Source: Eledone cirrhosa (lineage: Eukaryota). From it: 64,000 nucleotides of DNA. How positions within the stretch are numbered: the first letter of the stretch is position 1; every line of letters begins with the position of its first letter. The notes beneath the pieces were generated by a model. That model searched no databases, was not told the DNA's origin, and was given only the letters and a program-made list of their open reading frames with translations. Below are positions 3,234-48,017 of the stretch, piece by piece. Where the stretch lies: positions 11,904,001 to 11,968,000 of the forward strand of contig OZ024763.1 in assembly GCA_964016885.1 (NCBI GenBank), in the 5' to 3' direction. The position numbers were made by a program, and so were the translations under genes.

Positions 3234-3621
3234 ACCCACTCTACTACCCTAAGTATTGAGTACTCTGGTGCGTTATGGTCCATCTGGTTCCTTACCACAA
3301 TTCCTTCGTTATATATATATATATATATATATATATATATATATATATATATATATATATATACATATATATATATTTATATGTGTGCCTGTCTGTTGTC
3401 TCCCCCCTCCCCATCCACTGTTACACACACACACACATTCTCTATCATCATCTTGATCTTGACCGTTTAATGTCCACATATATATATATATATATGCAAA
3501 GGTTATATTTAATTTGTTGGGATTCAACAAGCTTAAACATTTTTATAACTGATATAAAGAACTGAACAAATTAGATTTTTTCAGGTATGTCAATATTTAT
3601 TTATAAAACAAATCTGTATTG

Positions 3622-3687
3622 TATTTTATCTGATGAAAGCGCACCATAATTTGCCTTGGTGGCCCTTGAAACATGTATAATAAAATA
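3622..3687 (+). ncRNA. Hammerhead-like motif, family B (stem III mutated)
   Basis: tattttat-CUGAUGA-aagcgcacca..tggtggccctt-GAAA-catgta-ta-ataaaata. Confidence 0.55.
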
Positions 3688-5049
3688 AATATGGTTTTAT
3701 AAATATAGTTTCCATTTGTTAATATATTGTACATATATATATATATATATTATATATACATATATATATATATGTATATATATGTATATATATGTGTGTT
3801 TCTCTCTTTCCTCTCACCCTCTCATCAATATTTTGTTATTAGAGATAGCTACAGTCAACATTATAGCTCTCTTGTTGTTGTTCTTGTTACTGTCAACAAA
3901 CACAGCTAATTAATTTTTACATGAAGCATCATTAATTATAGACAAACCACCACCACCTCCTCCCCGTTCCCTTCTCTCCTCCATTAATTCCCCCCCCCCT
4001 TCATCCATCAATAGTCTGTTATTAAATATATACAGCTACACTACTACATGTACTAACAGCTACTACTACTACTACTACTGTAAATGAGTATGAAGTAGTC
4101 TCTCTTTCCTTCTCTTTCTCTCTCCTCCTTCTGTCCCCCTCTATCTCCCGCCCTCTCATTACTTTCTCAATAGTTCACCCACACAATCTGCAATAGTATG
4201 TCATTAGCCCTTTCATTAAGGTGGTAAATTAGCAGAGATGGTAGAACGTCAGATAGAATACCTTGTGGTGTTGTCCTGCTCTCTACTCTCTCAGAGTTCA
4301 AATCCCACCGAAGTTAACTTTGCCTTTCATCCTTTCAAGGCCGATAAAAAATAAAAAAAAAATTTTTTTTAAAGTACCGGTCAAATACTAAGATTGATTC
4401 TTCCTCCATATTGCTTTCTCACTTCTCTCTCGCTCTCTCTCTCTCTCTCTATCCTTCCCTAGAAGAAAACTGCTGTGTTCAGACATGGAGAGGGATGGGC
4501 TCCACCAGATTTTAAAATGTCCTAGAAACACTGTATGTCAATGTGGCGCCCCCTACAACTCTCTTAGGTGTCACAAGTCCATACATATATACAAACCCTT
4601 TCATTATCGTTTTGAAAATAATCAAGAATTTTGATTTAGTAATAATAGAACTCTATTACTACTACTACTACTACTACTACTACTACTACTACTACTACTA
4701 CTACTACTACTACTACTGTTACTACTACTACTACTACTACTACTACTACTACTACTGTTACTACTACTACTACTACTGTTACTACTACTACTAATAATAA
4801 TAATTGTTTCTACTTTTTGGTACAAGGCCAGCAATTCACCAGTGCATTACTGGTACTTTATTTTATCGACCCCGTAAGGATGAAAGGCAAAGTTAACCTC
4901 GGAGTTAGGTTTATCATCAATAAAGTCCTAGAGCCAATCATCTGTGAAACATATTTCTTTCATATATACATATATACATATCCTGCGTTCAATTGGGGTT
5001 AACCACAGTAAGGAAGGTACTCAATACATAGCAGAGTATATAATGTTTA

Positions 5050-5166
5050 ATATATAAATGGCTTCTACAGGACTAGACCTGTTTCATTTGAAGGAAATCA
5101 TCAGGAAAGCCCTGATGATTTCCTTTGAATGAAACAGTTCTAGTCCTGTAGAAGCCATTTATATAT
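5050..5166. repeat. Inverted repeat of PLE-like family A (CTGATGA...GAAAC)
   Basis: ~56-bp arms around AAAGC. A similar palindrome lies at 13648-13777, with single arms at 15590-15720 and 16296-16430. Confidence 0.85.
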
Positions 5167-5168
5167 AT

Positions 5169-5440
5169 GGAGGCACATGGCTTAGTGGTTAGAGCATTGG
5201 CCTTGCAATCGAAAGGTTGTGAGTTCAATTCTCAGACCGGGTGATGTGTTGTTTCCTTGAGCAAGACACTTTATTTCACATTGCTCCAGTTTACTCAGAT
5301 GTAGAAATGAGATGATAGGGACTGGGGTCCCTATCATTCCACTGCAAAGTAGTCGTGGAGGTGCCACGGCAAAAAAGCAGCCAGCACTCACTGTAAATGA
5401 GGTTGGTGTTAGGAAGGGCATCCAATGAAATGATGATGAT
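5169..5440 (+). mobile_element. tRNA-derived CORE-SINE (family 1)
   Basis: A-box TGGCTTAGTGG, B-box GAGTTCAATTC, and a MIR-CORE-like segment ccttgagcaagacactttatttcacattgctccagtttactcagatgtagaaatgag. The RTE-type tail has an internal deletion. Confidence 0.88.
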
Positions 5441-5455
5441 ATATATATATATATA

Positions 5456-44500: not shown

Positions 44501-44501
44501 T

Positions 44502-44837
44502 TCATTCATTTCATTTTACGTCCGCTTTTTCCCTGCTTGCAAGGGTGGGACGGGAACTGATTCTGGCTTGATTTCTACAGCTGGATGCCCTTCCTAACAC
44601 CAACCTCATTTACAGTGAGTGCTGGGTGCTTTTTTGCCGTGGCACCTCCACGACCACTTTGCAGTGGAATGATATGGACCCCAGTCCCTATCATCTCATT
44701 TCTACAGCTGAGTAAACTGGAGCAATGTGAAATAAAGTGTCTTGCTCAAGGTAACAACACATCACCCGGTCTGAGAATTGATCTCACAATCTTTCGATTG
44801 CAAGGCCAATGCTCTAGCCACTAAGCCATGTGCCTCC
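44502..44837 (-). mobile_element. CORE-SINE family 1, full length
   Basis: Same sequence; abuts a truncated Tc1/mariner-like MITE. Confidence 0.9.
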
Positions 44838-44908
44838 ATATATTTATATATATATAAAACCATATTTATTTTATTATATATACTTCAAGGTGTTAAAGAG
44901 TATATATA

Positions 44909-45291
44909 CGAGGGCAATCCCAAAAGTAAGGTCTCCTTCTGATATTGCAACTTTTCCGTTAAAATCCTGTGGATGGTGCTTCGGGAAACCTCAGGAACCA
45001 AAATGCAGAGAGCATCCGCCAATGTTTACGCATGTTTTCCTCAGAAGGAGACCTTACTTTTGGGATTGCCCACGTATATAATAACTGCGCGAAATTCGCA
45101 CTTGGCTGTAGCATTCAATGGGGCTCCATTCTCAATGGCTGCCAAGCCAAGATTGAGCATCCCAGCGAAGCGCATGCATGTTTGTTTGGAAGTGAAGGAA
45201 GCACCAATCACAACAGTGTTGCCAACAGCCGTACGAACAGTTTCTCTGCATCCCCATCGCTTTGGAGACCTTACTTTTGGGATTACCCTCA
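44909..45291. mobile_element. Mariner-type MITE with one left and two right TIRs
   Basis: TA|CGAGGGCAATCCCAAAAGTAAGGTCTCC. Reverse complements end at 45074 and 45291, each followed by TA. Confidence 0.8.
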
Positions 45292-45410
45292 TATATATAT
45301 ATATATATATATATATATATATATATATATATATATATGACTACCCAAGAAAATTCAACTGATAAGGTATGATTTCCTTGGGTATATCATAATTTATAAA
45401 ACACACTTTG

Positions 45411-45472
45411 TATTTTATCTGATGAAAGCGCACCAAAGTTTTTGGTACCCTTGAAATATATATAATAGAATA
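45411..45472 (+). ncRNA. Predicted type I hammerhead ribozyme (PLE repeat family B)
   Basis: Stem I tattttat/atagaata, CUGAUGA at 45419-45425, stem II aag..accaa/ttggt..ctt, GAAA at 45453-45456, palindromic stem III AUAUAUAU, AUA cleavage after 45464. Confidence 0.75.
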
Positions 45473-48017
45473 AATATGGTTTTATAAATATAGCTTCTAT
45501 TTATTTAATATCATTATATATATATATATATATATATATATATATATATATATATATACTCTTTAACACCAGTTCCAGGCTACGGGCTGAGCCCATGCTG
45601 GGGCTCCACTATTATATATATATACACCCACCCACAGATATGTACTCACACTTACCTATACACAATTACACATCCATGAATAATATATATTATAAAAGTG
45701 TGTCATGCCAAAAGTAAACAGGAATAACATAGCAAATGACACAGTACAATGAAGAAATATATATATACACGCCTTCACATATAAATATATATATATATAT
45801 ATATATGACATATCTATACACACACATACATATACACAGATACATATATAACATACATATACAGACATACACACATATATGACATACATATACACACACA
45901 CATATGACATACATACACACACACATATGACATACATATACACAAACACACATATATGACACATACACACACATATGGCATACATACACACACACATATA
46001 TGACATACATACACACACACATATATGACACATACACACACACATATGACATATATACACACACACATATGACATATATACACACACACATGACATACAT
46101 AACATACATATATGGCATACATATACACACGACATACGTATACACACACATATATATATATACACATATGACATACACACACATATATGACATACACACA
46201 CACACGACACATACACATACCTATGACATACACACATGCATATATGACACATACACATACATATGACACATACACACATATATGACATAAACACACATAT
46301 ATGACATATATATATTTACATTAATACTTTTTCTTTAAACTAAACAAATGAACTGAATGTGTCTATGTAACATGTAACTATAGTGTGTGTGTAGTATGTA
46401 TGTCAGTGTGTGTGTGTGTGTGTGGTATGTATGTCAATGTATGTGTGTGTGTGGTATGTCAATGTATGTGTGTGTGGTATGTGTGTGTATGCCTGCCATT
46501 GTATGTGTGTGTATGTCTGTCAATGTGTATGTGTGTGTATGTCTGCCATTGTCTGTGTGTGTATGTCTGCCATTGTCTGTGTGTGTATGTCTGCCATTGT
46601 ATGTGTGTGTATGTCTGTCATTGTATGCGTATGTCTGTCAATGTGTATGTGTGTGTATGTCTGCCATTGTATGTGTGTGTATGTCTGCCATTGTATGCGT
46701 ATGTCTGTCAATGTGTATGTGTGTGTATGTCTGCCATTGTATGTGTGTGTATGTCTGTCAATGTGTATGTGTGTGTATGTCTGCCATTGTCTGTGTGTGT
46801 ATGTCTGTCAATGTGTATGTGTGTGTATGTCTGTCATTGTCTGTGTGTGTATGTCTGTCATTGTCTGTGTGTGTGTATGTCTGCCATTGTCTGTGTGTGT
46901 ATGTCTGTCATTGTCTGTGTGTGTATGTCTGCCATTGTCTGTGTGTGTATGTCTGCCATTGTCTGTGTGTGTATGTCTGCCATTGTATGTGTGTGTATCT
47001 CTGTCAATGTGTATGTGTGTGTATGTCTGCCATTGTCTGTGTGTGTATGTCTACCTCAGTATGTCTGCCACTGTCTGTCTGTCTGTCTGTGTGGTATGTG
47101 GCCTTGGAAGAATTAAAAATAAAATTCTAGTTGACTCAGTCTATATTATCATCACTACCATCACCACCATCACTACCGCCACTACCACCACCACTACCTT
47201 CACCACCAACACTACCAACACTACCATCACCACCATCACTACCGCCACTACCACCACCACTACCTTCACCACAAACACTACCACCACTACCACCACTACC
47301 ATCACTACCATCACTATCATCACTACCATCACCACCACCATCACCACCATAACTACCGCCACTACCACCATCACTACCGCCACTACCACCATCACCACCA
47401 TAACTACCACCATCACCACCATCACTACCATTATTACAGCTACCACCATCACTACCTCCACTGCCACTACCATCATCACTATCACTACTATCACCATTAC
47501 ACAACCACTACTACCACAGCCTCCACCACCACCATACCACAGCCACACCACCACCACTACCATTTTCTAGAGGTCGGTTATTAGACATGTTATGACTTGC
47601 TAAATATCTGATAATGTGTTTTATTCTACCACTACACCCCCCACTACCTCCACCACACCACTACCACTGTCACTACACCCCCCACTACCACCACCACACC
47701 ACTACACCCCGCACTACACCACCACCGTCACTACACCCCCCACTACCACTACTACACCGCCCCACTACTCCTACACCTCTACCACTCACTACCATTGCAC
47801 CACCACCACTTCTTCACTGATTCACTAGTGATTATAATGACATCATAGGTCACATGTAACAACTGCAGGTACTACTACTACTACTACTACTACTACTACT
47901 ACTGCTACACAAAAGGAGTTCATCCCATCTGAAGAAAGAGCTTTGTTAAGTGGAATGGCTGATGCAGTGGGTATTGCTGGCTATTTTCTGTTGCAACACT
48001 TTCACTATGTTGTCTAT

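What the first reader, a model, noticed from the sequence alone, without database searches (positions are those of the whole stretch)
3497..45540. Dispersed hammerhead-bearing repeat family B (3622, 33548 minus, 33632, 44850 partial, 45411)
A ~120-200-bp non-coding repeat recurs five times. It always carries tgtattttat-CTGATGA-stem-GAAA-(TA-rich palindrome)-ata(g/a)aata followed by aatatggttttata, and it always sits in or next to (TA)n. The 45411 copy is canonical; the others have core or stem III mutations. No adjacent intact ORF exists, which suggests a small non-autonomous, ribozyme-processed retroelement (PLE pLTR derivative or retrozyme-like) that targets TA microsatellites.
Basis: partly seen in the sequence, partly recalled or inferred. 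Interest (0 to 1): 0.75.

Follow-up and report, generated by a model that had tools for sequence, protein, structure and literature searches.

The report
Hydra-type Penelope retrotransposon end repeats
These repeats are the hammerhead-carrying end pieces of an ordinary Penelope-type jumping gene that has left over eleven thousand copies in TA microsatellites of this animal genome, and their two fixed end points likely mark where the element's enzyme starts copying its RNA.

Summary
The repeat is real but is not a separate small element. It is the pseudo-LTR (pLTR) of an autonomous Penelope-like element (PLE) of the Hydra clade. Full-length pLTR-ORF-pLTR copies (3.55-kb unit; RT plus C-terminal GIY-YIG) lie elsewhere in the genome. 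A 23-mer of the hammerhead occurs 11,013 times. The five copies sit at three insertion sites, mostly as head-to-head pairs. Copies end at two fixed points about 90 nt apart: short (62 of 101) or with a tail from the ORF leader (34 of 101). 88 of these 96 ends abut (TA)n against about 10% background, and 47 of 48 pairs join one short and one long arm. The hammerhead is conserved, covaries and has a palindromic stem III (dimer type). However, only 1 of 141 arms starts at its cleavage site and no short tandem units were seen, so 'ribozyme-processed retrozyme' is not supported. Solo and inverted pLTRs, a one-sided tail and TA targeting are published PLE traits. The scan already noted two-armed PLE footprints and hairpins behind the two ends in other pieces of this genome. 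Verdict: new family of a known kind.

The parts
3496..3572 (-). Inverted long arm, tail only (subfamily B2), long end at (TA)n
   Evidence: blastn to the tail of the 33632 copy and to natural long copies; sequence
3575..3729 (+). Short arm of the pLTR, subfamily B2; hammerhead 3622-3687 with a private stem III change (ACATGTAT); short end followed by (TA)n
31953..31991 (+). Lone 39-nt fragment of the tail reaching the long end (B1)
33504..33620 (-). Short arm (B1) of a head-to-head pair; core at 33601-33595; stem III damaged; short end in (TA)n
33621..33831 (+). Long arm (B1): hammerhead core at 33640, extra A after GAA, 90-nt tail with bulged hairpin from 33748; long end not in (TA)n
44847..44890 (-). 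44-nt fragment (3' half of the hammerhead, positions about +30 to +73); carries ATAAAATA, unlike the 45411 copy
44889..44908 (-). Inverted copy of the flank that follows the 45411 copy (about 45551-45571); suggests that 44850 and 45411 are one insertion site later split
45340..45515 (+). Solo short pLTR (B1) between two (TA)n runs, from the common 5' point (about -79) to the short end
45411..45472 (+). Type I hammerhead, intact; predicted cleavage after A45464; palindromic stem III ATATATAT

Best explanation
Family B is the pseudo-LTR of an autonomous Hydra-clade Penelope-like retrotransposon, and the window's copies are truncated, mostly head-to-head insertions in (TA)n that the element's own enzyme likely made by starting reverse transcription at two fixed internal sites of its uncut RNA. 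Shown: the pLTR flanks a single ORF of about 750 aa (RT, then GIY-YIG); the 'tail' is the leader between the 5' pLTR and the ORF; ends are bimodal, abut (TA)n, and pair one short with one long arm. Inferred: the endonuclease cuts both strands in (TA)n. Each DNA end primes at one of the two sites, helped by UAUA/AUAU microhomology a few bases 5' of a small bulged hairpin. The two cDNAs stop early or at about -80 and are joined head to head. The hammerhead is predicted to work only as a dimer, so solo and inverted copies would not cleave in cis, and its cut does not define the copy ends.
For: Linkage: 21 of 30 endonuclease loci carry the pLTR downstream on the same strand, and 5 more carry it inverted upstream. 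L220 has pLTRs at 2627 and 6177 around the ORF. The B2 pLTR precedes a 743-aa frame (L299), and a sister family has 750-aa frames between two hammerheads. The tail runs on into the ORF leader in L064, L071 and L175-L179. Protein: the fold matches TERT (3du5_A, E 5e-10) and other RTs. The C-terminal domain's top three matches are GIY-YIG nucleases (I-TevI Z 7.3, rmsd 2.3, 82 aligned). Hydra motifs are present in the ORF and in most of 120 homologues. Ends: 62 short, 34 long, 5 other of 101; (TA)4 within 30 nt in 88 of 96 (background 8-11%); 47 of 48 pairs short+long. In a sample anchored on the long end, 20 of 20 partner arms with a visible 3' end are short-type. Long end joined to TATA 483 times against 6 read-throughs into the leader, exact patterns. 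Hammerhead: 73 of 101 intact by a strict rule; compensatory changes in stems II and III across three families. Published parallels: PMC8557442, PMC11167929, PMC4209133.
Against: No RNA data were available, so transcription, start site and cleavage are untested. Pfam gave no match for the family's own ORF pieces and PDB sequence search gave none. The GIY-YIG fold match is of middling Z, and Foldseek's best E was 0.067. Clade placement rests on motifs, not on a tree. None of the family B ORFs that I translated was both uninterrupted and catalytically complete; L299 has YRDY. One pair (L173) has two short arms. The 44850 fragment ends at +73 and differs from its neighbour in a subfamily-diagnostic base. 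10 of 13 ORF-start copies with a detectable hammerhead run upstream past -80, so -80 is not the start of every template. In vitro PAc primes without homology to the target (PMC11167929), so the microhomology may be incidental in AT-rich sequence.
Confidence: 0.87

Rival explanations
1. The solo pLTR has become a non-autonomous, SINE-like element: long solo copies are transcribed from the pLTR promoter and copied in trans by the PLE protein.
For: Solo copies far outnumber copies that keep the ORF start (11,013 hammerhead 23-mers, against 6 exact read-throughs). 11 of 40 long arms start within -67 to -81, which gives a unit with defined ends.
Against: Subfamilies B1 and B2 and at least two further variants are also found beside the ORF or its 3' UTR. 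10 of 40 long arms extend 195 to over 1000 nt into the 3' UTR. The hairpin behind the long end exists only in the ORF leader and is absent from solo copies.
Confidence: 0.1
2. It is a non-LTR retrozyme: tandem hammerhead units are cut to monomers, circularised and reinserted.
For: Type I hammerhead with palindromic stem III, low GC, and a size in the retrozyme range (PMC7229834 passages). Retrozymes are proposed to derive from pLTRs (10.64898/2026.07.22.740005).
Against: 0 same-strand neighbours within 1 kb among 100 listed copies against 12 head-to-head pairs. Ends lie 50 and 140 nt 3' of the cleavage site, and 1 of 141 arms starts at it. The repeat is contiguous with an ORF.
Confidence: 0.03

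Closest known systems
Hydra-clade PLEs (Craig et al. 2021, PMC8557442; section 11, passages and part 2 of 59 of the supplement read)
   Same: [quoted passage not shown]
   Different: Unit 3.55 kb with a 3' UTR of about 1.1 kb (Hydra 'generally <3 kb'). Tail about 90 nt against 30-40 bp. The hammerhead differs in sequence from all listed Hydra motifs, including Hydra-1_oBim, and has an even 8-nt palindromic stem III.
Poseidon_Ac (PAc) PLE in vitro (Frangieh et al. 2024, PMC11167929; parts 1-2 of 4 read)
   Same: Two internal RT start sites whose interval is the genomic tail; AT-rich targets cut on both strands; hammerhead cleavage not needed for insertion.
   Different: In PAc the ORF starts within the hammerhead and the sites lie in the ORF. 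Here the ORF starts about 245 nt after the core and both sites are in the leader. Junctions here show TA microhomology.
PLE hammerheads (Cervera and De la Pena 2014, PMC4209133; parts 1-2 of 4 read)
   Same: Mostly single motifs or opposite-strand pairs 100-700 bp apart, read as truncated PLEs; palindromic helix III, dimer model.
   Different: A-U or G-U instead of G10.1-C11.1 at the base of stem II. A wider pattern gives 47,259 matches for this family group, against 4,000-9,000 reported there for two vertebrates with another descriptor.
Metazoan non-LTR retrozymes (PMC7229834, passages; 10.64898/2026.07.22.740005, part 1 of 5 and passages)
   Same: Type I hammerhead in a short AT-rich repeat related to pLTRs.
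   Different: No short tandem units, ends not at the cleavage site, ORF-linked.

Membership tests
EN+ Penelope-like element | Single ORF with telomerase-like RT | tested here: met
   YRDD motif; model pLDDT 85 matches TERT 3du5_A at E 5e-10 and other RTs; Pfam itself gave no match
EN+ Penelope-like element | C-terminal GIY-YIG endonuclease | tested here: met
   Top three VIA matches are GIY-YIG domains, Z 7.3, 6.5, 5.3; best homologue carries PF01541; Foldseek E only 0.067
EN+ Penelope-like element | pLTRs in partial tandem or inverted, tail on one end | tested here: met
   L220, L176, L178 partial tandems; 47 of 48 pairs short+long
EN+ Penelope-like element | Hammerhead in the pLTR | tested here: met
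   Core and three stems; 73 of 101 intact; pair counts on 103 distinct motifs; no Rfam match in the window
Hydra clade | RWK-type motif, DKT for DKG, CxCX5C linker | tested here: met
   RWRA, SDKT and CNCRIKSNC in L064, L066, L220; in 93, 114 and 112 of 120 homologues; definitions
Hydra clade | No CCHH; terminal CxxC and CxH | tested here: met
   One Cys only between VVY and YVG; CKLC and CRH present; invariant columns of A3
Hydra clade | (TA)n insertion | tested here: met
   88 of 96 ends against 8-11% background
Hydra clade | Placement in an RT tree with reference Hydra elements | not tested
   Reference proteins were not held as session sequences
Non-LTR retrozyme | Short head-to-tail tandem units, each with a hammerhead | tested here: not met
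   0 same-strand pairs under 1 kb among the first 100 listed matches, one contig
Non-LTR retrozyme | Non-coding, not part of an ORF-bearing element | tested here: not met
Non-LTR retrozyme | Unit-length linear and circular RNA | not testable with these tools
   No RNA run was listed for this sequence

The most novel reading that the evidence does not exclude
The copies record how PLEs integrate. A dimeric enzyme cuts both strands of (TA)n and primes both DNA ends on one uncut RNA, at two sites about 90 nt apart, each 5-8 nt before a duplicated bulged hairpin (ACTC...GAGT behind the short end, GCTC...GAGC behind the long end). That would explain the near-strict short+long pairing, the tail-only arms that stop at the short site (4 of 40 at +93 to +99), the shared private variants of paired arms, and the short arms that reach further 5' than their long partner (8 of 20), which fold-back copying cannot give.
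Probability: 0.45. Interest if true: 0.65.

Novelty: new member of a known kind. Interest (0 to 1): 0.3.

Why it matters
For annotation, it reassigns a large class of small hammerhead repeats in this genome (at least 11,013 copies; 47,259 pattern matches with sister families) to truncated Hydra PLE ends rather than retrozymes. Beyond that, how PLEs form inverted ends and the one-sided tail is an open question. This family gives two base-resolved start sites, a candidate RNA signal and uninterrupted sister ORFs, so the model can be tested in vitro. The qualitative pattern is in print, and the scan had already noted the hairpin idea in this genome.

Tried and rejected
Rfam scan of the window: no hammerhead model matched at E<=1. 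First idea of a viroid-like rod or MITE, from the inverted match between 3505-3572 and 33757-33823: rejected, it is the PLE tail on an inverted arm. Naiad or Neptune clade: rejected on domain order and motifs. Hammerhead cleavage as the 5' end of templates: 1 of 141 arms starts exactly there; a few join within the TA-like stem III and are ambiguous. -80 as the universal RNA start: weakened, because 10 of 13 ORF-start copies extend further; it may be a start site for some RNAs or a stop at a 5' hairpin. Pfam and PDB sequence searches of the family's ORF found nothing. RNA evidence: no RNA holder listed, and no reads were laid, so expression is open. A tally of the second hairpin was out of register and is not used; one search is used instead. 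Alignment A1 was selected on the invariant 23-mer and was not used for covariation. Literature: a search for Penelope-like + tail + inverted + twin priming listed one unrelated review; octopus + hammerhead ribozyme listed nothing on this family; PMC13282606 has no passage on hammerhead or Hydra. Repbase and Dfam could not be searched, and supplementary alignments of PMC8557442 (figure S7) were not seen. The scan's notes held nothing by sequence or near this place.
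Full report
Observation. The five pieces exist where stated. The core pattern occurs 11 times in the window against 1.0 expected. Positions below are relative to the C of CTGATGA. The 45411 copy folds as a type I hammerhead: stem I TATTTTAT/ATAGAATA, a stem II with a C-C mismatch at its fourth position, GAA, ATATATAT and H17=A. The other copies have private changes in stem III or lack the 5' half. The copies sit at three sites. At 3496-3729 an inverted tail fragment is joined to a short arm. At 33504-33831 there is a head-to-head pair centred on 33620/33621. 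At 44847-45515 a fragment and a solo copy are separated by a 380-nt element with terminal inverted repeats and by an inverted copy of the right flank.

Copy number. The window lies in a genome of 3.0 Gb. One 23-mer of the hammerhead matches 11,013 times, with 0 control matches. A wider pattern that keeps the core and a palindromic-type stem III matches 47,259 times and takes in sister families. The sister family at window 33362 has 971 matches to its own 21-mer.

Link to an ORF. Several of the best loci continue upstream through an AT-rich 3' UTR into an open frame. With that frame as query, 21 of 30 fetched loci (one is the query's own) carry the repeat 0.9-1.3 kb downstream on the same strand, 5 more carry it only inverted upstream, and 4 have none within 1.5 kb. 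L220 is complete in layout: 3' UTR remnant, pLTR with tail at 2627-2898, ORF from 2949 (frameshifted), 3' UTR, and pLTR at 6177-6450. The subfamily of the 3622 copy precedes a 743-aa frame in L299, and a sister family has 750-aa frames between two hammerheads in L301-L303. In copies that keep the ORF start, the sequence after the long end runs on for about 55 nt to the ATG. The tail is therefore the leader of the next unit.

The protein. Pfam and PDB sequence searches gave nothing for the family's ORF. 885 homologues were found at E<=1e-10, the best with PF01541. A model of 637 aa (pLDDT 85) matches TERT and other RTs. A model of the last 142 aa has GIY-YIG nucleases as its top three matches, at middling Z. 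The motifs RWRA, SDKT, CNCRIKSNC, CKLC and CRH, and the lack of CCHH, are those given for the Hydra clade (PMC8557442 section 11). Most of 120 homologues share them. The hammerhead differs from every Hydra motif listed in that paper's supplement, including the cephalopod Hydra-1_oBim. No tree was built.

Ends. I mapped 101 copies, the first listed on contig C1; two loci among them look like duplicates of each other. 62 end at about +100, 34 at about +190 and 5 elsewhere. (TA)4 lies within 30 nt of 59 of 62 short and 29 of 34 long ends, against 8% of window positions and 11% of flank positions. For pairs, 41 short copies had a long inverted partner and 17 long copies a short one. Removing 12 double counts and reading L088 gives 47 short+long events, 1 short+short and 0 long+long. 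Left out were 33 copies without a partner within 1 kb, 5 whose partner was interrupted and 2 interrupted themselves. Three counted partners lie 225-810 nt away and may be separate events. In a second sample of 40 loci chosen by the long end (40 of 483), 20 partners showed their 3' end and all were short-type (18 at +105/106, 2 at +88 and +96); 7 partners were incomplete and 13 loci had none. Long arms start at -67 to -81 in 11 of 40, beyond -195 in 10 of 40, and inside the tail in 10 of 40, 4 of them at +93 to +99. Paired arms differ by a median of 3 changes against 11 for random pairs, and several share private variants (40 pairs). Gene conversion between arms could also give that.

The ribozyme. 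73 of 101 copies pass a strict test of core, stem III and stem I. Across 103 distinct motifs of three families, stem II positions 3, 5, 6 and 9 and stem III show compensatory states: ATATATAT, ATATGTAT and ATGCGCAT. These are few independent events. Forming stem III within one molecule costs about 3 kcal/mol in the model, while the palindrome can pair between two copies. This is the dimer arrangement described for PLE hammerheads (PMC4209133). Inverted arms lie on opposite strands and could not dimerise in cis; a pLTR-ORF-pLTR RNA could. Only 1 of 141 arms begins exactly at the cleavage site, which fits the report that uncut RNA is the main substrate for PAc (PMC11167929).

Candidate start signals. 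A bulged hairpin ACTC-C...YY-GAGT begins 5-8 nt after the short end in families B, C and D. An earlier scan note (e1-8673755) pointed to a twin. I then found GCTC-C...TT-GAGY just after the long end in 18 of 30 ORF-start loci by a strict pattern, and both hairpins side by side in the sister element L301. Both end sites also carry UAUA/AUAU in the RNA. A role in priming is inferred, not shown.

Mechanism. Most likely the PLE protein nicks both strands of (TA)n and starts reverse transcription internally at the two sites, one per DNA end. Starts in the 5' pLTR or early stops leave 180- or 275-nt solo copies, and joining of the two cDNAs gives head-to-head pairs with the tail on one side. In 8 of 20 pairs the short arm reaches at least 30 nt further 5' than the long arm, so it cannot be a fold-back copy of it. 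Whether one or two RNAs are used is open.

Comparison and verdict. Inverted truncated pLTRs, a one-sided tail, TA targeting and opposite-strand hammerhead pairs are all published, and internal initiation at two sites was shown for PAc. What differs is a tail of about 90 nt, a longer unit, the copy number and the near-strict pairing count. The retrozyme reading fails two defining tests: no short tandem units in the sample and ORF linkage. This is a new family of a known clade, of modest interest, with a testable mechanistic side point that the scan had already raised on other DNA of this genome. Those notes call the genome octopus-type; I did not test that.

Noticed in passing
window 33250-33452 (+), core at 33362: Intact hammerhead of a sister PLE family (stem III ATGCGCAT, longer stem II), short end in the same (TA)n run as the 33548 copy. 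971 matches to its 21-mer; its loci show short and long ends and link to a related ORF.
   Followed up: partly
window 5082-5134, 13687-13709, 16301-16323: Another small hammerhead-core family (CTGATGATTTCC...TGAAA); the 5082/5112 copies form a head-to-head palindrome like family B pairs.
   Followed up: no
window 44909-45290: Element with about 28-bp terminal inverted repeats, TA-flanked, with an internal third copy of the end; MITE-like, inserted in the (TA)n between the 44850 and 45411 pieces.
   Followed up: partly
window 16500-16680: Short palindrome followed by a diverged tail-like stretch with an ACTCC hairpin motif; probably a remnant of another Hydra-type pLTR without the core.
   Followed up: no
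window 32808-32849 (-): A further CTGATGA...TGAAA core with a different stem II.
   Followed up: no
L064, L220 leaders (-52 to +197); L301: AAG|GTATG donor-like site at about -52 and a TAG at about +197 would splice out the hammerhead, both start sites and most upstream ATGs. A TAACTGA just before the ATG and a TTTAG in the first codons offer a second acceptor. Not conserved in all families; untested.
   Followed up: partly
L301-L303: Sister Hydra family with core CTGAAGA and many uninterrupted frames of about 750 aa between two pLTRs; looks younger than family B.
   Followed up: partly
window 5178-5286, 14838-14918, 17789-17897, 30847-30927, 32357-32465, 56918-57026: Repeated SINE-like element; four copies have weak tRNA-model hits.
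   Followed up: no
pLTR -80 to -40 in L084-L113: 5' hairpin (for example CCAAGGAA...TTCCTTGG in B1) with different sequence in each subfamily; many arms stop or fold over at its 5' edge.
   Followed up: partly
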